A stretch of DNA of 30,615 bases from positions 1 through 30,615 of IMG/VR virus record IMGVR_UViG_3300032270_000254, one strand, 5' to 3'. The notes beneath the pieces were generated by a model. It saw only the letters and a program-made list of their open reading frames with translations. It was not told the DNA's origin and searched no databases. Within the stretch, counting starts at the first letter, position 1; the number at the start of each line of letters is the position of its first letter. Positions 6,204 through 30,615 of the stretch are shown piece by piece. The position numbers were made by a program, and so were the translations under genes. This DNA is from a virus. Its lineage: Duplodnaviria > Caudoviricetes.

Positions 6204-6565
6204 CACGCGAGGAAGCAATTTTGGAACTTAACCATAGGGCAACGCAAAAGTATTTGGTTTATTTGGCCCTCCAGGAAATCATGTTGGATTATTACGAAGA
6301 CGTGACAATGTTAAAGGCTTTTGACGGCGATCTAAAGACCAAACATAAAAACATGATTAACGCGTTAAAACGTAAATCAAGTGAGGCGTTTAGATTTTTG
6401 GAAAATTACGACGGCGGCGAGGCAACAATAAAACAGTTTCACGAATTCGTTAGTTTATTTGAACGCTTGCACAATTCAATCGACCAGGGCGGTCTAGTAT
6501 TTCACGATTGCTTGGCAGCCATTGACCAAATTTTAAAGGATTATGATAAGGCGCAAAGTAACTGA
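6200..6565 (+). CDS. Hypothetical protein
   Basis: 121-aa ORF with ATGA-type overlap. Confidence 0.7.
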   Translation: MTREEAILELNHRATQKYLVYLALQEIMLDYYEDVTMLKAFDGDLKTKHKNMINALKRKSSEAFRFLENYDGGEATIKQFHEFVSLFERLHNSIDQGGLVFHDCLAAIDQILKDYDKAQSN

Positions 6566-6692
6566 ACAAGAAAAGCAAATTATTTTTGAGGCTTGGCAAG
6601 ACCGCAAGCCAATTAAGGCAATTGCTTCGGAACTGGGTAGATGTTATGGCACAATTTATACTGAACTAAAACGTCGGTATTTAGTTGGATAA
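6543..6692 (+). CDS. 49-aa HTH protein (HTH_38-like); not in the ORF track
   Basis: MIRRKVTEQEKQIIFEAWQDRKPIKAIASELGRCYGTIYTELKRRYLVG has the IAxxLGRxxxTIxxELKR pattern. Confidence 0.7.
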   Translation: MIRRKVTEQEKQIIFEAWQDRKPIKAIASELGRCYGTIYTELKRRYLVG

Positions 6693-6712
6693 ATTAAAAA
6701 GAAGTATATTTG
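6685..6712 (+). promoter_or_regulatory. Bacteroidota primary-sigma promoter for the leader RNA and replication operon
   Basis: TTG (6685-6687), 17-nt spacer, TATATTTG (6705-6712). Confidence 0.75.
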
Positions 6713-6720
6713 TATAAATA

Positions 6721-6810
6721 ATGAAACATTTAAGAGGTCGGAGCCTTAGATGTTTCATAGGTGTAAATCCACCAAGGCCCATCGACTCCGACACGATAGG
6801 GCCTTTTTTA
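6721..6810 (+). ncRNA. Structured leader RNA: two hairpins with complementary loops, the second terminator-like
   Basis: 14-bp stem 6721-6734/6745-6758; stem 6774-6784/6794-6805 followed by a T-run; loop GTCGGAG (6737-6743) is complementary to loop CTCCGAC (6786-6792). Confidence 0.75.
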
Positions 6811-6816
6811 TTTGTT

Positions 6817-7575
6817 ATGAAAAAAGAAGCTTATTACTTTTCGCACGATGCCAACGCAAAGGACGATGTAAAGATTTTACAATTACGAATGGAAATGGGC
6901 TGGGAAGGTTACGGTCTTTTTTGGGCCTTAATTGAGATGCTTAGAAATGAATCTGAATTCCGTATGCTTAAGCATTACAAAAGCATTGCATTTGCATTGC
7001 ATACGCATGAAGATAGCATTAAAAAGCTTATTAATGATTTTGATTTGTTCCAGTTAGATGAACAATATTTTTGGTCGGAAAGTCTTTTAAAGCGTATGGA
7101 ATTAAAAGAAGAGCGCTCCGAAAAGATGCGAGAAGCGGCCAAAAAACGCTGGAATAAAGATATTGATGCAAATGCAATGCAAATGCATAGCTTAAGCAAT
7201 GCACAAGCAATGCAATTAAAGGAAAAGAAAGGAAAGGAAATAAAAGAAAAAGAAATAAAAGGAAATGAAAATAAATTAAATGAGGAGTCACACAATCAAA
7301 TTTTCCGAGATTTATGGAATAATATGATTTGGTTGGAAAGTATGGCAATGAAGCACAAGGCAACAATTGACCAGGTAAGAAATCATTTAAATGAATTTAG
7401 GCAAGAATGCATATTAAAAGCTGAATTTAAGGTAAGCGAAAAAGACGCGAAAGAACACTTTTTTAATTGGATAAAAAGAGGGAATCCAATTGAAATAAAA
7501 CAAGAAAAAAGTCGAAACGTTTTCGACGAAATTTATGAAGATTTGCAACGACAAAAACTCCTAAAAAATGAATGA
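6817..7575 (+). CDS. Replication initiator protein, DUF4373 (Lin1244/Lin1753-like) N-terminal domain
   Basis: YYFSHDANAxDDxKI...GWEGYGLFWALIEML; RSExxRxAAxxRW; low-complexity linker. Start at ATG 6817, since the track extension from 6721 is the RNA leader. Confidence 0.8.
   Translation: MKKEAYYFSHDANAKDDVKILQLRMEMGWEGYGLFWALIEMLRNESEFRMLKHYKSIAFALHTHEDSIKKLINDFDLFQLDEQYFWSESLLKRMELKEERSEKMREAAKKRWNKDIDANAMQMHSLSNAQAMQLKEKKGKEIKEKEIKGNENKLNEESHNQIFRDLWNNMIWLESMAMKHKATIDQVRNHLNEFRQECILKAEFKVSEKDAKEHFFNWIKRGNPIEIKQEKSRNVFDEIYEDLQRQKLLKNE
6964..7282. repeat. Iteron-like repeats and purine-rich tract; putative replication origin
   Basis: Clusters of (A)ATGCA/TGCAT(T) repeats; 16-bp inverted pair 6987-7002 / 7172-7187; GCTTAAGC palindromes at 6966 and 7190; A/G-rich run at ~7217-7282. 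Confidence 0.65.
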
Positions 7576-8197
7576 GATAATTTTAACGCACCTCCGCAAA
7601 ATGGAATTTGTTTGCGGTCTAAAGCAATTTAAAGAATACAAAAAAGAAGAGGCTAACGAGTTGCTCGAATGCCTAAGCAAATTGTTTGGCTCTTATGGCT
7701 GGATGACTGACGCGAGAGTTGATTACATTTTACACGCTGGTATGAGAGGCCAATACGGCGAATTTTACCACGTTAACGAGAAGACTGTGAGCGTTTGGAT
7801 TAATCAATATTACGCACACCACCAAAGCCAAATTGTCCAGGAAGTCCAGGCGTTAAACAACAAAGAGCGCGAATACAGCAACGAGGAAATTGAACATTGG
7901 AAGGAAATTGGACGCCAAACCTTTCGCGATAATTACCAGCACGCCAAAGAAACTGGAACTTGCAGACACATTGCCGACTGGGGTATATACTGGTTTAACA
8001 GATTTCAAGAAAAAGGAATTTTAAAGCCTTGGGATTTCAACGTTGAAGAATTAGAAACCGACGTTCGCCGAGAATTGCGCTTAACAACTAGGTACGTTGA
8101 AGAATCAACAGTTGGGGCCAAGACAAAGAATAAGATTTGGAAATTGTTTATTTTGGACGCGATTAAGGAGAATAAAAATTTAGATAAACTAATATGA
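7568..8197 (+). CDS. Hypothetical protein, possibly a helicase-loader analogue
   Basis: Overlaps the initiator stop, in the position of lambda P; no motif recognised. Confidence 0.55.
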   Translation: MNEIILTHLRKMEFVCGLKQFKEYKKEEANELLECLSKLFGSYGWMTDARVDYILHAGMRGQYGEFYHVNEKTVSVWINQYYAHHQSQIVQEVQALNNKEREYSNEEIEHWKEIGRQTFRDNYQHAKETGTCRHIADWGIYWFNRFQEKGILKPWDFNVEELETDVRRELRLTTRYVEESTVGAKTKNKIWKLFILDAIKENKNLDKLI

Positions 8198-11559: not shown

Positions 11560-12758
11560 TTGACAAATACGAACCGTTATTTTTAGAGACGCCTAAAACC
11601 CGTTATTATCTTATAACTGGCGGTCGTGGTTCGGGGAAGTCTTGGACCTTGTCCATGTTTCTGTTAAACCTAACTTATGAGGAGGGCCACGTTATCCTGT
11701 TTACTCGTTGGACGTTGACGAGTGCGTTTATTTCAATTATCCCCGAATTTATCGACAAAATAGAGTTGATGAATAAGGCGGACGACTTTGAAATTACCCA
11801 AAGCGAGATTATAAATAAGGCCACAGGATCAAAGATTTTATTTAGAGGGATTAAGACCAGCCAAGGCACCGCAACGGCTAACTTGAAATCAATTGCTGGC
11901 GTTACAACATTTATTTTGGACGAATCGGAGGAATTAATGGACGAGGACGTTTTTGACCGAATCGACCTTTCAATTCGTGCCGTAAATAAGCCAAACCGCG
12001 TTATTTTGGTAATGAATCCAAGTTACAAAAGTCATTGGATTTATAACAGATTTGTAAAGCATACGCGCAGCGATACCAGTTACATCCATACAACTTACTT
12101 GGACAACGAGCATAATTTAAGCCAGTCATTTATTGACCAGGCAAAGCGAGTTAATCAAGAAAACGAACACCGTTACGAGCATTTATTTTTAGGTAAATGG
12201 CTAGACGATGCCGAAGGATTGCTTTGGAATCGGCCAATAATTGAACGAGCAAGGGTAAGCGCAAAACCTGAATTGTCACGCATTGTGGTTGCCATTGATC
12301 CAGCGACGACCGCATTAATGGGCAGCGACGAAACTGGTATAATGGTTTGCGGAAAAGACGTCAACGGCAAAGGTTACGTTTTAGAGGACCTTAGCGGTAA
12401 ATATTCGCCAACGGAATGGGCAACAGTTGCATTGCAAGCGTTTAAAAATTGGAATGCTGATTGCGTGGTTGCTGAAAAAAACCAAGGCGGTGACATGGTC
12501 GAAAACGTTTTGAGGTCGCAAAACACGACCGCAAGAATAAAACTTGTAACCGCAACAAAAGGGAAATTTGTAAGGGCAGAGCCAATTTATTCGCTTTATG
12601 AGCAACACAAAATTTTCCATGTTGGCAGTTTCCCATTGCTAGAAAACCAAATGATTACCTTTGAACCTGACAAAGGCAAATCCCCTGATCGGGTCGACGC
12701 AATGGTTTGGGGATTTACCGAATTAATGTTAACAAGCCAAGATTTTTGGCACGTTTAG
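11541..12758 (+). CDS. terL: Terminase large subunit
   Basis: Walker A GGRGSGKS, Walker B FILDESEE, nuclease motifs VAIDPA...SDETG...SPDRVDA. Confidence 0.95.
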   Translation: MDKIQIIDKYEPLFLETPKTRYYLITGGRGSGKSWTLSMFLLNLTYEEGHVILFTRWTLTSAFISIIPEFIDKIELMNKADDFEITQSEIINKATGSKILFRGIKTSQGTATANLKSIAGVTTFILDESEELMDEDVFDRIDLSIRAVNKPNRVILVMNPSYKSHWIYNRFVKHTRSDTSYIHTTYLDNEHNLSQSFIDQAKRVNQENEHRYEHLFLGKWLDDAEGLLWNRPIIERARVSAKPELSRIVVAIDPATTALMGSDETGIMVCGKDVNGKGYVLEDLSGKYSPTEWATVALQAFKNWNADCVVAEKNQGGDMVENVLRSQNTTARIKLVTATKGKFVRAEPIYSLYEQHKIFHVGSFPLLENQMITFEPDKGKSPDRVDAMVWGFTELMLTSQDFWHV

Positions 12759-14191: not shown

Positions 14192-14966
14192 AAAAGATTT
14201 AGCGCTTGCAAAGCAATTGGATGCATTGCAAAGACGTTACGAAAAGCGCTACGAAAAGCAAATTTACACGGCTTTAAAAAAGCAAATGCAACCGTATTTG
14301 GATGCTATTAAACAGGCGGACGGAAATATTAACCGCTTTGATTTAATAACGCCAGCGCCTTTGGCTGACACCTTGGAAAACCTTTACGTTGTGGCTGGCA
14401 CCGCTTACGCCGAGGCAATTTATAACGCAATCCAACCGCCAACAAAAGCAACTAAAGAAGTTTTACGCGCTGGCTGGCGTGACTTTATGCGTTTGTTTGC
14501 AGTTAGAAACTTGCCGCAAACGTTGATAAGCATTAACGAAACCAGCCAAAAGATAATTCGAGCCATTGTACTTGCTGGAATAAATGAAGGCCTTGGCGCC
14601 TTAGAAATAGCCACAAACATTCAACAAAGCATTTCTCTAATATTTAGAAATCGTGCAAAGTTGATTGCTAGGACTGAAATGGTAATAGCAACCAACAACG
14701 CGGCCATGCAATCAGCGGCAACCTCGGATTTTATGTATGAAAAGAAATGGATTCCAGCGACCGACACGCGCACGCGTCCTGATCATGCAGAAATGATGGC
14801 AAAACCTTGGATTCCATTCGACCAAAATTTTATTGTTGGCGGAAATGATATGAGACAACCAGGCGACGGCTCCCAAGGTGCTGGCGCTGACCAAATATGT
14901 AATTGTCGATGCAAGGTTGTTTTTAGAATAATGCGAGACGTTGACGGCTTATTAATTAGAAAATGA
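14175..14966 (+). CDS. Head morphogenesis protein (SPP1 gp7 / Mu gpF family)
   Basis: RAKLIARTE, KKWI...DTRTRPDH, PGD...NCRC. Confidence 0.9.
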   Translation: MPNPTKKDLALAKQLDALQRRYEKRYEKQIYTALKKQMQPYLDAIKQADGNINRFDLITPAPLADTLENLYVVAGTAYAEAIYNAIQPPTKATKEVLRAGWRDFMRLFAVRNLPQTLISINETSQKIIRAIVLAGINEGLGALEIATNIQQSISLIFRNRAKLIARTEMVIATNNAAMQSAATSDFMYEKKWIPATDTRTRPDHAEMMAKPWIPFDQNFIVGGNDMRQPGDGSQGAGADQICNCRCKVVFRIMRDVDGLLIRK

Positions 14967-15541
14967 TTGCTTACGTTATAAACTTGGACCATCGCAAAGA
15001 CAAATGGCGTGCGTCAATGCAAGAATTGTCCCCGCATTTTAATTTGGAACGAGTAAGCGCAATTAAACACGAATGGGGCTGGCTTGGATTATGGCAAACT
15101 TTCAAAAAAATATTTCAAGAATGCAACGGCGACGTTTTAATATTTGAGGACGACGCAACGTTTAGAGGTTGGGCGACTAATTTACAAAACGCAATAAATG
15201 ACTTGCCAGCCGACTGGGATATGTTAATGCTTGGGGCTAATATAAAAGATTCAAGAATTGACCGAATAAGTAAACAATTGGTTAGGACTTACGGCGCTTG
15301 GACAACGCACGCAATACTTTATTCGCATCGCTTTGCAAAGGAAATGGCAAAACTAGATTTAGACGTGCCAATTGACGAATATTTTAGGACAAAGGTCCAT
15401 CCTAAAGGCAACTCTTATATTTGCGTGCCATTCCTATCTTTTCAAAGACCAAGTGAAAGCGACATTGAGGGTAGTTATAAAAATTATACAAGTATATTTG
15501 AAGAAAGCGAAAACAAAGCAATGCATTTTATTAATCAATAA
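14963..15541 (+). CDS. Glycosyltransferase family 25-like (GT-A fold)
   Basis: YVINLxxRxDK, LIFEDDA, WDMLMLG, THAILY, PIDEY. Confidence 0.85.
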   Translation: MIAYVINLDHRKDKWRASMQELSPHFNLERVSAIKHEWGWLGLWQTFKKIFQECNGDVLIFEDDATFRGWATNLQNAINDLPADWDMLMLGANIKDSRIDRISKQLVRTYGAWTTHAILYSHRFAKEMAKLDLDVPIDEYFRTKVHPKGNSYICVPFLSFQRPSESDIEGSYKNYTSIFEESENKAMHFINQ

Positions 15542-17620: not shown

Positions 17621-18607
17621 ATGAATATCGTTTTTTTTGTACACGCATGGGCGGGAACCCATAACTCGGGGGCAGAGTGGACCGTTCAGCATTATGCAAA
17701 ATTTTTCCACGAAAAAGGATGCAATATTGAAGTTATTTTACCCGAGGGTCAAATTTATCCCGACGGCGAAAAGTTTGCTTTTATAAAATTTATTACTGGC
17801 TATTATTCAAATGACTTTTTCCTAGCCTTACAAAATGCAAGCGTAATATTTACCCATTTAGACAATACAGGCGTTGCGATTAATTGGGCAAAACAATTTA
17901 AAAAGCAATTGATTTTTTTAAGCCACAACGATTCCGATTATAGAAACGTGCGATTTAAAGCGCAAAACATTCACGTTGTTTACAACAATAAAGCAAACGA
18001 AAAGAATTTACAAAACGGGCCTTACCCTAATCAGTCAATTGTTTGCAAGCCTCCAATATTTCCTGAGGACGTAAAATATAACCGTAAACATGGCCAATAT
18101 ATTACCCTAATCAATTGCAACGAAAATAAGGGCGGTCAAATATTAATTGAATTGGCAAAGCGATTGCCAAAGCGCAAATTTCTTGGCGTGCTTGGTAGTT
18201 ACGGCGAGCAAATTATTGACGACACACTAAAAAATTTAAAGTATGTCGCACAAACGCCTGACGTGCATTTAATCTATGGCAAAACCAACATTGTTCTTGT
18301 ACCATCATTTTACGAATCCTATGGACGTGTAGGTTTGGAGGCGGCGATTAATCGACTCCCAGTTATTTGCACCCCAACAGACGGATTAAAGGAATGTCTT
18401 GGCGCCGCTGGCCTTTACTTTGATCGCAACGACATTGACGGCATGGCTGCAAAAATTGAGGAATTAATGAGTGACGAAATACTTTACGATTTCCATCAAA
18501 ACATAATGCGAAATCTTGCTGAGGAACGCCTTAAATACCAGGACCAAGAATTAGAAAGATTCTTTAATTTTATCGTTGACAAAGCAAAGAAACAATACAA
18601 TGAGTGA
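17621..18607 (+). CDS. Glycosyltransferase family 4-like (GT-B fold)
   Basis: SGAE N-terminal loop, KG motif, VPSFYESYGRVGLEAA...PVI (Ex7E). Confidence 0.9.
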   Translation: MNIVFFVHAWAGTHNSGAEWTVQHYAKFFHEKGCNIEVILPEGQIYPDGEKFAFIKFITGYYSNDFFLALQNASVIFTHLDNTGVAINWAKQFKKQLIFLSHNDSDYRNVRFKAQNIHVVYNNKANEKNLQNGPYPNQSIVCKPPIFPEDVKYNRKHGQYITLINCNENKGGQILIELAKRLPKRKFLGVLGSYGEQIIDDTLKNLKYVAQTPDVHLIYGKTNIVLVPSFYESYGRVGLEAAINRLPVICTPTDGLKECLGAAGLYFDRNDIDGMAAKIEELMSDEILYDFHQNIMRNLAEERLKYQDQELERFFNFIVDKAKKQYNE

Positions 18608-19969: not shown

Positions 19970-20394
19970 TGAGAAATATAAAACTATTTGTGCGCAAGGC
20001 TTATTGGACCGCTTTAAATAATACAATTACCTATAAAGGCGGACAAATTCCATGTTACGATACTTTTGCACCTGACGAGGCTGCATTTCCATACATTTTA
20101 ATTGGAAATCAAACGCAACAAGACGACAAAGACAACCAGGAATATAATTACATTACAACGATAACATTGGACGTTGTAACGGCTGGAATTGCACCGTATG
20201 GACGTATTGACGCCGACACAATAGCCGATTTAATTTTGCAAATAGTTTGTCTTTACCCTGAAAATTATTTAGCGCTCCAGGTTGGCAAAATTGTAACTGC
20301 AAAATTAATTCAACAGACTAGCCTTTCAAGTATTACGGACACAAACATTGTGCATCGTGAAATTTTGACGATTGAAAATTGGATTGATGGGTAA
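19969..20394 (+). CDS. Tail terminator/completion protein (DUF3168-like)
   Basis: YD..P....PYILIG pattern; position between the gp10-like gene and the tube genes. Confidence 0.75.
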   Translation: MRNIKLFVRKAYWTALNNTITYKGGQIPCYDTFAPDEAAFPYILIGNQTQQDDKDNQEYNYITTITLDVVTAGIAPYGRIDADTIADLILQIVCLYPENYLALQVGKIVTAKLIQQTSLSSITDTNIVHREILTIENWIDG

Positions 20395-20851
20395 GGTTAA
20401 CGGCTCCGCTTTATTTGTAACTGTTGGACTTGACCGAGTGGCCAAGTCAACTGGTTACAATTTATCCGCGGAAATGAGCCAGTTGGATAAAACCAGCAAC
20501 GAATCAGGTTTTTTTTCAGATCATATTTCGCGTCTTGGGTCTTGGTCATTGTCTAGCGATTCGCTTTACATACAGGACGGCTTTTCCTTTGGCGATTTAT
20601 ACAATGCTTATATTAACCGCGAGCGCATTTATTTATCGGCTGGACAAGAAGATAACTTAACATTTATTGGATTAGCAACAATTGAATCGTTGAGCCAGTC
20701 AGCACCAATGGAACAGGCTGCAAGCATTTCAGCAACATTTAAAGGTGTTGGCGGTCTTTACCCAACCATTTTACCAGCCGACCGCTTTATTATTGACGAG
20801 TTATTTGAAATTATAATTGACCAAGACGGAAACTTTTTGGTATACACTTAA
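20387..20851 (+). CDS. Tail tube protein paralogue with acidic C-terminal extension
   Basis: Colinear similarity to the next gene (GKxNG, SDHI, WSxSxDxL, GDLY, FxGxG); start at ATG 20387. Confidence 0.7.
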   Translation: MGKVNGSALFVTVGLDRVAKSTGYNLSAEMSQLDKTSNESGFFSDHISRLGSWSLSSDSLYIQDGFSFGDLYNAYINRERIYLSAGQEDNLTFIGLATIESLSQSAPMEQAASISATFKGVGGLYPTILPADRFIIDELFEIIIDQDGNFLVYT

Positions 20852-20922: not shown

Positions 20923-21345
20923 ATGGCTACTACTGGCAAATTTAATGGCACACTACTAAACGTTTACCTTAATAACGTAATGATTGGATGCGCCACATCC
21001 TCTGAACTATCTGTAAATGTTGACCTTGCGGATGCAACTTGCAAAGACGACGGAGGCTGGTCCGATCATATCGCTGGCTTACGCGATTGGTCTGTTTCAA
21101 CTGACGGATTGGTTGCATTTGACGACGTTAACAATGTTGGAGACCTTTATACTTTATTGAGCGGTCGTTCTATTGTTGCTTTGAAATTTACCACAAACGT
21201 TACTGGCGACTTGGTATTTTACGGCAATGCATCTGTTGCGTCAATCAGCGTTTCGGCTGAAATGGAATCCGCAGTTACTTATTCAGTTGAATTTACTGGC
21301 AAAGGTCCTTTACTAAAGGCCACCGTTGTGCCAGCATCTACTTAA
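20923..21345 (+). CDS. Major tail tube protein (TP901-1-like)
   Basis: DATCKDDGGW...GLRDWSVSTDG...TYSVEFTGKGPL. Confidence 0.88.
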   Translation: MATTGKFNGTLLNVYLNNVMIGCATSSELSVNVDLADATCKDDGGWSDHIAGLRDWSVSTDGLVAFDDVNNVGDLYTLLSGRSIVALKFTTNVTGDLVFYGNASVASISVSAEMESAVTYSVEFTGKGPLLKATVVPAST

Positions 21346-27092: not shown

Positions 27093-27094
27093 TT

Positions 27095-30000
27095 ATGGCA
27101 AATAGAAGGTTTATAGATTTTCCCATTGCGGCAAGTGTTGGCGACAATGATATTGTTTTAATTTGGCAAGACGGACTAAATAAACAGACGACCAAGGCAA
27201 CGCTTTTGCAAGGGTCGCCACAAAGTTTGGCTGGATTAACAGACGTTGACATTGCGGGCCTAACCAATGGTCAGATATTGCAATACAATAGCACCTTGGG
27301 CAAATGGGAAAACGTAGATAGGACCGACATAAATTTAAGCGAGTTGGGAGACGTTACGATTGTGGCGCCAACCAATGGCCAGGTTTTGGTTTATAATTCG
27401 TCAACGTCTAAATGGGAAAACTCAAGCGGCGGTTATGTCCCTTATACTGGCGCAGTTACAACGGTTAACCTTGGCGCTCAATCCATTTTGGCTGGAACTT
27501 TTGTAAAGGCTGGCGGAACATCTGCACAATTTCTAAAGGCGGACGGCTCGGTTGATTCCACGGCGTACGGGACTGGTTCGGTTACCTCAGTAGGTCTAAC
27601 AATGCCAAGCGCTTTTAACGTTGCAAATAGTCCAATAACAACCAACGGAACTTTGGCCGTTACTGGCGCGGGAACTGTTGCCCAATACATTCGAGGCGAC
27701 GGCTCTTTGGCCGATTTCCCAGCAACTACTGGAGGTGGTGCGTCAGTTAGTTACTATTTAAACGGATCAGTAAGCCAAGGCACAATCGGAGGCGTTGCTT
27801 ATCGCGAGGTTAACAGAAATCCAGTTTTTGGGGCTGGAACTGACATAAGCATAAGTTCAAACGGCTACATTGCCAACTTTATAACCGATGCTGGCGACCC
27901 AAATAAACTAGAAATTCCCGCTGGTAATTGGAATTTAGAAACCTACTTTAGCGCGTCAAGTGGTGGCGGTAATCCGTCTTTTTATGTTGAATTGTACAAA
28001 TACAATGGCTCAACCTTTACCTTAATTGCATCCAGCGCAACGTCGCCTGAATTAATTGCATTTGGCACAAACATAAACCCATATTTCAGCACGTTAGCGG
28101 TGCCACAAACAACGCTGGCTTTAACAGATAGGTTGGCGTTAAGGTATTACGTTAATACGTCTGGGCGTACAATTACCTTGCATACGGAAAACGGACACCT
28201 ATGCCAAGTTATTACTACGTTTACAACTGGCTTGACTGCATTAAATGGTTTAACTAGCCAAGTGCAATTCTTTGCGGTTGGGACTAGCGGAACGGACTTT
28301 GCCATTTCTAGCGCGACCGATACCCATACCTTTAATCTCCCGACTGCAAGTGCTGTTAATAGAGGTGCATTAAGTGCAGTTGATTGGAGCACATTCAATA
28401 GCAAGCAGAACGCAATTACTCTTACCACAACAGGTACAAGTGGGGCAGCTACATTGGTAGGTAGTACTTTAAATATTCCGCAATATCAGGCGGCTGGAAC
28501 TTATGTAACCTCGGTAACTGCGTCAACACCTTTAGCGTCTAGCGGAGGTACAACGCCAAATATTACAATCCAACAGGCAAGCGGCTCACAAAATGGATTC
28601 CTATCTAGCACAGATTGGACAACATTTAATAGCAAACAGAACGCTTTAACGAATCCAGTAACGGGAACGGGAACAAGCGGCCAAGTTGCTTACTTTAACG
28701 GCACGACAACAATTACCAGCGAATCCAACTTATTTTGGGATGCGACAAATGACAGGCTTGGAATTGGAACAAGTTCGCCAAGTTATACTTTACAATCTAA
28801 AGGCAATGGATTTGCAGTACAAGGAAATAATTTAAACCAAGGCAATACAATTCGTTTTTTAAGAGAAAGCGGCACTGAAATGGCTTATATTGGCTGGAGT
28901 ACTGAGGCTGCAAATAATTCAACTTGGCTTTTTAAATCTAGTAATGGTAACCCAATTGGATTTATTGCGGATGGGACAACTCAGGCTTTAACTTTAACCG
29001 CAACAAATAACCTACTTGTTGGCACAACCACAGACGCTGGTTATAAACTAGACGTTGCTGGTACTTTAAGGTCTACTGGACGGGCATTGTTAGGTAACTC
29101 AATGTTTGTTGGTGAAGTTTCAGGTTCCTATTCAATTATTGAAACAACTGGAAGCAATGGAATTTGGTTAAGACCAGCTGGAGTTTCCTCACCTAGTGGA
29201 ATGTTTTTAACCTCAGGCGGCAACCTACTTGTCGGCACAACAACGGATGCTGGCTATAAACTAGACGTTAACGGAACTGGGCGGTTTAGTGGTGCCGATG
29301 GAGCAGATTTAATTAGATATAACGCAACTGGAGTAAACACAAATTTTGCAACTAAAATAGTAAGTGGCGCAAACGATGTTTTAGTTTTTAGAAGGCAACA
29401 TTCTAGCGTTGGAGCCTTAGATATAATGGCCCTTGGATTTAACGGCAACGTTGGGATTGGGACAAGTTCGCCAGGTCAAAAACTACAAGTTGATGGCAGT
29501 TTATTGGTAAATGCTGGAACATCTGCAACGGCTTATAGGGATATAATGATGGGAGGTATTGGTGGATGGTCAACTGGAGAATCTCACGGCATAGATACTG
29601 TTTACAATACTTCGTCAAGTCCAACAACTTTTTCAAGAATTGAGTCTCATTTTGATGGAACTAGTGGACGTTTTAGATTTAGGAATTTGTTTTTTAATTC
29701 TTCGCCTAGAACCGATATTTTAATGACAATTGAAGGCAATGGAAACGTGCTGATTGGAACGACAACAGACGCTGGCTATAAGCTAGACGTTAACGGAACT
29801 GGTCGGTTTAGTAATATTTTAGTTGCTAATAGCGATATTCACCAAGTTTCAACTGGTGGATTATATTGGGGTGCAGCTTCAACTTATGTTATTGGAGTTA
29901 CTGGAAACACGGCTAATGGTAATTTATCTTTTATAACTGGAAGCACGGTTAAGGCTACAATAACCTCAGGCGGCAACATTGGGATTGGGACAAGTTCGCC

Positions 30001-30615
30001 AGGTTTTAAACTAGATGTTCAGAACAATACCCAAGCAATTACTAGAATACTAGACACAAGCACAAATTCAAGTTTAATATTACAGGCTGGGACTGGTTCA
30101 GCAATGAAAGTTACTGGCTATAATTATAACACCTCAACTGCTATTCCTTTGTATATTTCAGTTGATGGGGCCAATACTATAATGCAAAGTGGAGGCGGCA
30201 ACCTACTTGTCGGAACTACAACGGACAACGGGACTAGGCTGCAAGTAAGCGGCAGTGCTACAATAGGTGGAAATTTAACCATTAGTAGCGGAAATAATCT
30301 AAACGTTGTTACTGGCGATATTCATTTTCAATCAAATGCTGGTTATGGTATACTTTCACCAAATGCTAACAGATTAGTAAGTATTCAAAATGGAGCATTT
30401 GGAGTTTCAGGCGCGGCTACCTTTTCAAGTAGCGTGACGGCAGTTTCATTAAGGTCTGTTGACCCTGCAAATACATTTTCAGCATCATTTGGAGCAAACT
30501 CATCAACACCTAATTGGGTGGCAGTTGGTACAATTAGCGGAGTTCCAAGTATTAATGGATATAATAATACATTTTCCGCTACCACTAATTTAGCATTGCA
30601 GCCAAATGGAGGCAA
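27095..30615 (+). CDS. Long tail fibre / receptor-binding protein, 3'-truncated; absent from the ORF track
   Basis: ATG 27095 (MANRRFIDFPIAASVGDNDIVLIWQDG...). The same frame reads sensibly at the window end (VPSINGYNNTFSATTNLALQPNGG). Contains LxDV..NGQxLxYNS..KWEN, DWxTFNSKQNA and GNxGIGTSSP / TTDAGYKLDV repeats. Confidence 0.88.
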   Translation, partial: MANRRFIDFPIAASVGDNDIVLIWQDGLNKQTTKATLLQGSPQSLAGLTDVDIAGLTNGQILQYNSTLGKWENVDRTDINLSELGDVTIVAPTNGQVLVYNSSTSKWENSSGGYVPYTGAVTTVNLGAQSILAGTFVKAGGTSAQFLKADGSVDSTAYGTGSVTSVGLTMPSAFNVANSPITTNGTLAVTGAGTVAQYIRGDGSLADFPATTGGGASVSYYLNGSVSQGTIGGVAYREVNRNPVFGAGTDISISSNGYIANFITDAGDPNKLEIPAGNWNLETYFSASSGGGNPSFYVELYKYNGSTFTLIASSATSPELIAFGTNINPYFSTLAVPQTTLALTDRLALRYYVNTSGRTITLHTENGHLCQVITTFTTGLTALNGLTSQVQFFAVGTSGTDFAISSATDTHTFNLPTASAVNRGALSAVDWSTFNSKQNAITLTTTGTSGAATLVGSTLNIPQYQAAGTYVTSVTASTPLASSGGTTPNITIQQASGSQNGFLSSTDWTTFNSKQNALTNPVTGTGTSGQVAYFNGTTTITSESNLFWDATNDRLGIGTSSPSYTLQSKGNGFAVQGNNLNQGNTIRFLRESGTEMAYIGWSTEAANNSTWLFKSSNGNPIGFIADGTTQALTLTATNNLLVGTTTDAGYKLDVAGTLRSTGRALLGNSMFVGEVSGSYSIIETTGSNGIWLRPAGVSSPSGMFLTSGGNLLVGTTTDAGYKLDVNGTGRFSGADGADLIRYNATGVNTNFATKIVSGANDVLVFRRQHSSVGALDIMALGFNGNVGIGTSSPGQKLQVDGSLLVNAGTSATAYRDIMMGGIGGWSTGESHGIDTVYNTSSSPTTFSRIESHFDGTSGRFRFRNLFFNSSPRTDILMTIEGNGNVLIGTTTDAGYKLDVNGTGRFSNILVANSDIHQVSTGGLYWGAASTYVIGVTGNTANGNLSFITGSTVKATITSGGNIGIGTSSPGFKLDVQNNTQAITRILDTSTNSSLILQAGTGSAMKVTGYNYNTSTAIPLYISVDGANTIMQSGGGNLLVGTTTDNGTRLQVSGSATIGGNLTISSGNNLNVVTGDIHFQSNAGYGILSPNANRLVSIQNGAFGVSGAATFSSSVTAVSLRSVDPANTFSASFGANSSTPNWVAVGTISGVPSINGYNNTFSATTNLALQPNGG
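29011..30230 (+). repeat. Dispersed near-identical DNA repeats within the fibre gene
   Basis: 26-nt exact repeat 29451-29476 = 29979-30004; 17-nt exact repeat 29208-29224 = 29961-29977; 40/42 match 29249-29290 vs 29771-29812. Confidence 0.85.

What the first reader, a model, noticed from the sequence alone, without database searches (positions are those of the whole stretch)
6721..6816. Kissing-loop leader RNA with terminator in front of the replication initiator
Seen: a consensus promoter (TTG-17-TATATTTG) puts the transcript start just before hairpin 1 (14 bp, one G-U; loop AGGTCGGAGC). Hairpin 2 (AAGGCCCATCG/CGAT-A-GGGCCTT; loop ACTCCGACA) is followed by a U-run and then the initiator ATG at 6817. 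The two loops are perfectly complementary over 7 nt (GTCGGAG/CTCCGAC). Inference: an attenuator or switch in which the loop-loop pseudoknot controls termination or translation of the initiator, i.e. RNA-level replication control. It could also release a ~90-nt small RNA. I cannot assign it to a named Rfam family.
Basis: partly seen in the sequence, partly recalled or inferred. Interest (0 to 1): 0.78.

Follow-up and report, generated by a model that had tools for sequence, protein, structure and literature searches.

The report
Kissing-loop leader before phage replication genes
In front of this uncultured phage's predicted DNA-replication gene lies a roughly 90-base predicted RNA whose first hairpin tip matches, letter for letter, the tip of a terminator-like hairpin; related and cultured Bacteroidota phages keep that match with different letters, so it is a real element missing from the Rfam catalogue that likely sets how much transcription reaches the replication gene.

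Summary
Observation confirmed, plus a missed middle hairpin. A Bacteroidota-type promoter (6685-6712) is followed by hairpins P1, P2 and P3, a U-run, and the Lin1244_N (ex-DUF4373) initiator ATG at 6817. The 7-bp loop1/loop3 match is under selection: 87 of 88 folded relatives, picked by protein only, keep at least 7 Watson-Crick pairs across six non-cross-pairing loop codes; two leaders differ at just the two paired letters. The leader is not tied to DUF4373. It also precedes DUF6291 and DnaD-like initiators and occurs in cultured phages (11b, tooticki6-1 twice, elemoA, Harreka_1, Danklef_1, phi13:2). A second architecture keeps total arm length and often carries loop-E-like or tandem-GA loops. 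There is no Rfam match, third pairing site, conserved antisense promoter or leader peptide. Best reading (0.5): a guanidine-IV-like attenuator in which the kiss hinders terminator closure. Direction, input signal and transcription itself are untested. Boldest reading (0.25): terminated leaders act in trans as a code-specific copy-number sensor. This scan noted the same class before on other DNA. Anonymous candidates upstream of DUF4373 in PMC10690425 may overlap; their alignments were unreadable.

The parts
6543..6692 (+). 49-aa HTH gene whose stop codon lies in the promoter spacer
   Evidence: PF13936 HTH_38, E 8e-10; a stop-codon-type motif lies at the same place in the spacer in 89 of 92 related leaders
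6685..6712 (+). Bacteroidota-type promoter-like site: TTG, 17 nt, TATATTTG
   Evidence: box present in 86 of 88 relatives; upstream T[TA]G at 15-21 nt in 91 of 92; consensus recalled, activity not tested
6721..6758 (+). P1 hairpin, 14 bp with one G-U, 10-nt loop
   Evidence: 94.6% of cells paired and 8 of 11 pairs with two-sided changes in 44 sequences
6737..6743 (+). loop-1 kissing core (7 nt)
6760..6773 (+). P2, small middle hairpin (4 bp here, 5-9 bp in relatives)
   Evidence: 85.1% paired and 1 of 4 pairs with a two-sided change
6774..6805 (+). P3, terminator-like GC-rich hairpin with 9-nt loop and a bulged A
   Evidence: -15.3 kcal/mol alone; present in all 88 folded relatives
6786..6792 (+). 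loop-3 kissing core, exact complement of loop-1 core
6804..6813 (+). U-tract (T6-A-T3) after P3
   Evidence: at least 5 T in the 8 nt after P3 in 87 of 88 relatives
6817..7575 (+). predicted replication initiator, Lin1244_N (PF14297, formerly DUF4373; old name recalled) plus DUF7833
   Evidence: phrog_2562 'replication initiation protein', E 1.4e-22
7568..8197 (+). overlapping 209-aa gene of unknown function, probably co-transcribed
   Evidence: only weak hits

Best explanation
The element is a promoter-proximal leader whose first hairpin loop is complementary to the loop of a terminator-like hairpin, and it likely works as a transcriptional attenuator in which the predicted loop-loop kiss, formed within the nascent RNA, would hinder closure of the terminator stem and so set how much transcription enters the replication operon. 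Shown: the anatomy, selection for the loop-loop pairing, its RNA-strand bias, and conserved arm geometry. Inferred: that it is transcribed, that P3 plus the U-tract terminates, that the kiss forms co-transcriptionally in cis, and that it favours read-through, as described for the guanidine-IV riboswitch. The input (folding kinetics, Mg2+, a protein, or free leader RNA) is unknown.
For: Covariation: 87 of 88 folded upstream regions, chosen by protein similarity alone, have at least 7 WC pairs over six cores, with cross-allele means of 5.0 bp or less. L024 and L417 differ at only the two paired letters. A pattern leaving one paired position free was matched in 99 of 99 promoter-bearing distinct hits, against 34 of 44 without a promoter. 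Position: directly after the promoter, with P3 ending 8-17 nt before the ATG in 87 of 88, and in front of three unrelated initiator N-termini, so transcripts from this promoter must pass the U-tract. Cis geometry: site-to-site distance median 52 nt, IQR 49-55.5, in 47 leaders; P1 and P3 lengths anticorrelate, rho -0.59; summed arm height sd 2.8 against 6.6 permuted in 36 of those 47. RNA level: G-U in stems of 87 of 91 leaders and better folding on the + strand in 68 of 91; loop-E-like or tandem-GA loops under the kissing loop in 13 of 27 long-P3 leaders against 1 of 27 on the opposite strand. Direction: long-form analogues pair 11-16 nt of the 5' segment with the terminal hairpin's loop or 3' arm, which competes with it. 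Precedent: PMC11611296 (passages).
Against: No transcript, terminator or reporter data exist here. The kiss is thermodynamically compatible with the full P3 stem: 0.0 kcal/mol in the window, median 0.8 over 47 leaders. It extends 2 bp into the P3 stem in only 33 of 88 leaders and not in the window's allele, so antagonism would be steric or kinetic. In long-P3 leaders the kiss lies 15-35 nt upstream of the U-tract. No ligand or factor is identified. Homology of the long forms to this element is not shown. The arm-length statistic mostly reflects two architecture classes of related sequences, and 11 of 47 rows were dropped. The 47 leaders were curated for having the complement.
Confidence: 0.5

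Rival explanations
1. Trans feedback: terminated or processed leader RNA accumulates with genome copy number, and its loop captures loop 1 (or loop 3) of nascent leaders bearing the same code. This would throttle initiator expression and interfere with co-infecting phages of the same code (P4 CI / IsrK logic in a minimal two-site form).
For: Six mutually non-pairing codes in one close clade, five of them found with all three initiator families. 36 distinct 5' sites in the curated set. No G-U in the cores although stems carry 206 G-U in 2583 pairs. The two copies within one genome differ in 3 of 3 cases (tooticki6-1, L143, L396). Precedents in PMC4825925 (passages); small loop changes alter compatibility in PMC10724649 (passages).
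Against: The conserved cis geometry suggests the released RNA kisses itself, leaving few free loops. No third site. Extra WC pair types per position are no higher in the kiss (6 over 7 positions, from the six cores) than in P1 (9 over 11), so neutral compensatory drift can explain the codes. Different codes in two copies are expected by chance among so many codes.
Confidence: 0.22
2. The kiss only compacts and stabilises a terminated ~90-nt small RNA with a job of its own, or protects the mRNA 5' end; the initiator is expressed by fixed leaky read-through or from upstream.
For: The kiss coexists with P3; tertiary-type internal loops occur; length is narrow (median 91 nt).
Against: The element keeps its place at the head of replication modules while the first gene is swapped. 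Little primary sequence is conserved across classes, as a target-binding RNA would need (model R1 misses class II).
Confidence: 0.13
3. Translational control: the kissed fold next to the start codon helps or blocks ribosome loading (IncI repZ-like logic) and P3 is a poor terminator.
For: P3 ends 8-17 nt before the ATG in 87 of 88 close relatives, at the edge of a ribosome footprint (recalled).
Against: The U-tract is strictly kept (87 of 88). The spacing reaches 18-51 nt in several cultured and distant phages. No pairing site near the start codon, and no conserved leader peptide or antisense promoter.
Confidence: 0.1
5. A put-like nascent RNA that docks on RNA polymerase and suppresses termination processively (HK022 put; recalled, not read).
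For: Promoter-proximal hairpins followed by a U-rich tract; the G-U / A-C end of the kiss is conserved in 30 of 36 distinct 5' sites against a shuffled mean of 13.0.
Against: Stem lengths, linker and polarity vary widely, leaving little constant surface.
Confidence: 0.04

Closest known systems
Guanidine-IV riboswitch (mepA / GGAM-1), PMC11611296 passages read
   Same: A 5' hairpin loop forms a kissing loop with the region capping the terminator hairpin across a flexible linker, ahead of a U-tract; there the kiss hinders the complete terminator stem and promotes read-through.
   Different: No Rfam match. The central three pairs vary freely and polarity can swap. Downstream genes are phage replication genes, not guanidine exporters. 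No ligand is known.
Phage P4 CI RNA (seqA/seqB/seqC) and P1/P7 c4 RNA; P4 as summarised in PMC4825925
   Same: A leader-derived RNA in front of phage replication genes, with short complementary sites and premature termination.
   Different: Only two sites and no seqC equivalent; no C4 Rfam match; an intrinsic-type terminator is part of the element; common in integrase-less phages.
Gifsy-1 IsrK (PMC4825925, passages)
   Same: One promoter could give both a short terminated RNA and a read-through mRNA.
   Different: IsrK pairs with about 30 nt downstream of its terminator and acts on translation through orf45; here both sites lie upstream of the U-tract and there is no conserved upstream ORF.
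IncI/IncB/IncK plasmid rep pseudoknot and antisense RNAI (PMC10724649, passages and reference titles)
   Same: Loop pairing in the leader of a replication initiator; small loop changes could define specificity groups.
   Different: No conserved antisense promoter (72 of 92 lack any box) and no leader peptide; the partner site is a terminator loop, not the ribosome-binding region.
Anonymous candidates DNAVirus_187, _704, _4859, _4548 (PMC10690425 supplementary tables)
   Same: Listed within 25 bp upstream of DUF4373 genes; the first three come from mainly freshwater viruses; 49-106 nt.
   Different: No function or loop-loop pairing is mentioned in the passages and tables seen. Their alignments could not be read, so overlap with this leader is neither shown nor excluded.

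Membership tests
Any Rfam 15 family | cmscan hit at gathering score | tested here: not met
   0 hits in the window and in 13 related loci; only sub-threshold chance hits at the leader
Guanidine-IV riboswitch | kissing loop between a 5' hairpin and the terminator hairpin | tested here: met
   predicted pairing supported by covariation; not probed
Guanidine-IV riboswitch | conserved loop sequence and guanidine-related downstream genes | tested here: not met
   loop cores vary; downstream genes are initiators or endonucleases
Guanidine-IV riboswitch | ligand-dependent read-through | not testable with these tools
   needs a termination assay
P4 CI / c4 antisense system | third site (seqC-like) complementary to the small RNA | tested here: not met
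   cognate matches in four flanking zones are no better than non-cognate in 91 leaders; each core occurs once in the window
P4 CI / c4 antisense system | small RNA processed from the leader and acting in trans | not testable with these tools
   needs RNA data
IncI-type rep pseudoknot with antisense RNA | countertranscript promoter on the opposite strand | tested here: not met
   none near the leader in the window; a consensus box in 20 of 92 relatives, not across all initiator types; non-consensus promoters not excluded
IncI-type rep pseudoknot with antisense RNA | conserved leader peptide | tested here: not met
   open in-frame upstream ATG in 6 of 92; no ATG at all in 22 of 92
IsrK-type dual RNA | target site downstream of the terminator | tested here: not met
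Intrinsic (Rho-independent) terminator | GC-rich stem followed directly by a U-tract | tested here: met
   the scan did not list it because the loop is 9 nt; termination itself untested
Bacteroides FopS sRNAs | single-stranded 5' stretch with R1 seed plus one terminator hairpin | tested here: not met
   PMC11697453 passages; this leader has three hairpins and no Rfam hit

The most novel reading that the evidence does not exclude
A widespread family of Bacteroidota phage leaders uses a 7-9-letter kissing code as an RNA address. The kiss in cis licenses the first rounds of replication-gene expression, and accumulating terminated leaders with the same code shut it down in trans. This gives largely lytic phages a protein-free counter of genome copy number and a code-specific way to exclude close relatives.
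Probability: 0.25. Interest if true: 0.87.

Novelty: new variant of a known kind. Interest (0 to 1): 0.7.

Why it matters
How integrase-less Bacteroidota phages time and dose their replication initiators is essentially undescribed in the papers searched. This is a compact RNA element with strong covariation that spans several initiator families and is present in cultured phage-host pairs (tooticki6-1, 11b, elemoA, Harreka_1, Danklef_1, phi13:2), so it can be tested directly. It would add a kissing-loop attenuator with no known ligand to the riboswitch-like repertoire and supply natural orthogonal terminator parts for Bacteroidota. If it acts in trans, it would be an RNA-coded incompatibility system in phages.

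Tried and rejected
Rfam: nothing at gathering in the window or in 13 loci; e-value hits are chance terminator look-alikes. RNA runs: none was listed, which is no evidence either way. N-terminal extension or leader peptide from ATG 6721: rejected, 6 of 92. Third pairing site: rejected. Antisense countertranscript: no conserved promoter box. Strand invasion into P3 as the general mechanism: only 33 of 88 extend 2 bp, and an apparent extra P1-top/P3-arm pairing is not conserved (registers). 'Only in lytic phages': weakened. Integrase was absent from 11 of 11 records and 0 of 17 genome-resident DUF6291 loci had the leader, but Danklef_1 (integrase annotated) has it and temperate laban6-1 has a long form. 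Faster change in the kiss than in stems: not seen. One search used kiss columns off by one and was redone; there 13 of 44 rows are misregistered by MAFFT, and two of the five measures were not above shuffles (175/500 and 500/500). Covariance model R1 is clade-specific and gave only weak hits in 5 genomes (not examined). The constrained fold failed through a script error; only its MFE and duplex values are used. REP-like GTAG repeats explain some promoterless pattern hits (label recalled). FopS: rejected. Porphyromonas phage005b lacks the leader. Paper searches showed no description of this element; subscription journals are not covered.

Full report
Context. The window is one 30,615-base virus record, estimated 89% complete: a siphovirus-type genome with lysis, Erf/Gp157 recombination, replication, terminase, portal, capsid and tail genes. 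The gene at 6817-7575 has Lin1244_N (PF14297; the older name DUF4373 is recalled) and DUF7833, and matches phrog_2562, 'replication initiation protein'. A Bacteroidota host is inferred from the promoter type (consensus recalled) and from related cultured phages; it was not determined.

Observation. A third small hairpin, P2, lies between its two hairpins. The region folds far better than shuffles (z -5.76). A 7-bp loop match arises in 696 of 200,000 loop shuffles, so the single case is unlikely by chance but needs relatives.

Covariation. I took the closest loci of three initiator queries (each call kept the best 80 of 83-549 relatives). That gave 167 loci chosen by protein only; 3 were too short, leaving 90 distinct upstream regions. 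88 folded into two long hairpins, and 87 of them have 7-9 Watson-Crick pairs between the loops. The exception (L405) and one unfolded case (L428) lie behind an inserted gene, with the leader one gene up; the other unfolded case (L344) visibly carries the match. Six cores of the form GU-NNN-AG occur (20, 16, 16, 15, 13 and 7 sequences). Cognate pairing averages 7.0-9.0 bp and cross pairing 5.0 or less. Five of the six cores occur with all three initiator families. L024 and L417 differ at exactly the two paired letters. On a 44-sequence alignment, the 31 correctly registered rows pair at all seven positions, three pairs change on both sides, and 0 of 500 shuffles reach the covariation score; 13 rows were misregistered, and two other measures were not above shuffles (one search had the kiss off by one column but gives P1 94.6% and P2 85.1% paired). 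In pattern scans that left one paired position free, it was matched in 99 of 99 promoter-bearing distinct hits and 34 of 44 others.

RNA level and geometry. Stems contain 206 G-U in 2583 pairs (87 of 91 leaders), and the + strand folds better in 68 of 91. In 47 leaders curated for having the complement two architectures appear. Class I, the window's, has a long P1, P2 and a short P3. Class II has a short P1, an A-rich linker and a long bulged P3. The two sites lie a median 52 nt apart, P1 and P3 lengths anticorrelate (rho -0.59), and opening both sites costs a median 0.8 kcal/mol, so the kiss sits in loops and can coexist with P3. Summed arm height is 23-34 nt, sd 2.8 against 6.6 permuted, in 36 rows (11 rows with no P1 or a mis-called fold were dropped, and lineages are not independent). 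In 27 long-P3 leaders, 6 carry an AGUA/GAA loop (loop E / sarcin-ricin type, label recalled) and 7 a tandem-GA-type loop next to the kissing loop, against 1 and 0 on the opposite strand. 30 of 36 distinct 5' sites begin with GU or end with AC (shuffled mean 13.0, maximum 23), and polarity can be swapped (L051 versus L055).

Distribution. The leader stays while the first gene changes. Among 84 viral pattern hits (63 distinct) it precedes Lin1244_N, DUF6291 and DnaD-like initiators, and endonuclease-like or other genes (those labels partly recalled). A crude detector finds it in 43 of 133 more distant viral loci and in 4 of 31 bacterial-genome loci, one of them weak; it misses several cases seen by eye, so these are lower bounds. 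Cultured phages carry it: Flavobacterium 11b, tooticki6-1 (two copies with different codes), elemoA, Olleya Harreka_1, Cellulophaga phi13:2 (5' site without a clear P1) and Polaribacter Danklef_1. Whole-genome scans at the stricter setting gave only these copies, one in 11b and two in tooticki6-1. Muminviruses are described as strictly lytic (PMC7077304, passages). No tyrosine integrase was found in 11 of 11 records, 8 of them at least 90% complete, and 0 of 17 genome-resident DUF6291 loci, from 803 genomes searched, had the leader within 1.5 kb. But Danklef_1 has an annotated integrase (PMC8776804 passages), and temperate laban6-1 has a long form, so it is not confined to lytic phages.

What is absent. 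No third site. No conserved antisense promoter box (72 of 92 lack one) and no conserved upstream ORF (6 of 92 in frame). No second copy in the window. No Rfam family.

Mechanism. Transcripts from the promoter must pass a GC-rich hairpin and U-tract 13 nt before the ATG, and the only conserved alternative pairing is the kiss. I commit to attenuation with the kiss favouring read-through (0.5). The basis is the guanidine-IV precedent, where a kissing loop hinders the complete terminator stem and elongation of that stem strains the linker (PMC11611296, passages), and long-form analogues (L134, L226, L069, L224, L243, laban6-1), whose 5' segment pairs 11-16 nt with the terminal hairpin's loop or 3' arm. 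Against it: the kiss does not compete for stem bases in the window's allele, nothing was measured, and no input is known. The trans-feedback rival (0.22) rests on the many orthogonal codes and on the P4 CI and IsrK precedents (PMC4825925, passages). However, pair-type diversity in the kiss (6 extra types over 7 positions) is no greater than in P1 (9 over 11), and the cis geometry argues that released RNA would pair with itself. A stable small RNA (0.13), translational control (0.10), put-like action (0.04) and chance (0.01) follow.

Novelty. Ten paper searches showed no description of this element. I read passages of PMC2864571, PMC10434189, PMC11697453, PMC4825925, PMC10724649, PMC11611296, PMC7077304, PMC8776804 and PMC10690425, and searched supplementary tables of PMC10690425 and PMC8040213. 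PMC10690425 lists anonymous candidates within 25 bp of DUF4373 genes (DNAVirus_187, 704, 4859, 4548). Its alignment and diagram files could not be read, so part of this leader may already be catalogued there without a name or function. This scan's earlier notes describe the same class on other genomes; they are not counted as support. One of them pointed me to guanidine-IV, and one that called such a match chance is contradicted for this family. Verdict: a real RNA element absent from Rfam, a new variant of the kissing-loop attenuator kind, testable in cultured systems; interest 0.7.

Noticed in passing
window 6817-7575; L263:1024-1710; L255:1581-2273: Initiators in this clade swap unrelated N-terminal domains (Lin1244_N, DUF6291, DnaD-like) behind the same leader while sharing C-terminal pieces such as DUF7833.
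   Followed up: partly
window 6543-6692: A small HTH gene ends in the promoter spacer, apparently in 89 of 92 relatives; it is a candidate regulator of this promoter.
   Followed up: partly
L488:2001-2100, L483:2250-2345, L454, L382, L082, L396: Long-P3 leaders carry an AGUA/GAA internal loop 3-5 bp below the kissing loop; others carry UGAA/GGAU-type loops.
   Followed up: partly
L051:1082-1173 and L055 upstream of 2001: Related leaders have the same code with the two loops exchanged (polarity swap).
   Followed up: partly
L489:11598 and 12633; L143:570 and 2895; L396: Some genomes hold two leaders with different codes; in tooticki6-1 one lies before an annotated endonuclease. Endonuclease genes often sit directly behind the leader (GIY-YIG in Danklef_1).
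   Followed up: partly
L618:13241-13100 (minus), L134, L226, L069, L224, L127: Long-form leaders in which a single-stranded 5' segment can pair with the loop or 3' arm of a long terminal hairpin (11-16 nt; less in L127); relation to the kissing form not established.
   Followed up: partly
L243:1501-1589 (minus): A high-GC viral contig has a 12-bp version with a U-tract but no Bacteroidota promoter box and no adjacent gene.
   Followed up: no
window 20372-20851 and 20923-21345: Two adjacent genes both match major tail protein phrog_1407.
   Followed up: no
window 14963-15541 and 17621-18607: Two glycosyltransferase-like genes lie inside the head module.
   Followed up: no
window 27093-30615: No long closed ORF is listed; possibly a tail-fibre gene running off the end of the record.
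   Followed up: no
window 12664-12720: A detector hit of 8 bp here is an ordinary hairpin stem, not a loop-loop match.
   Followed up: yes
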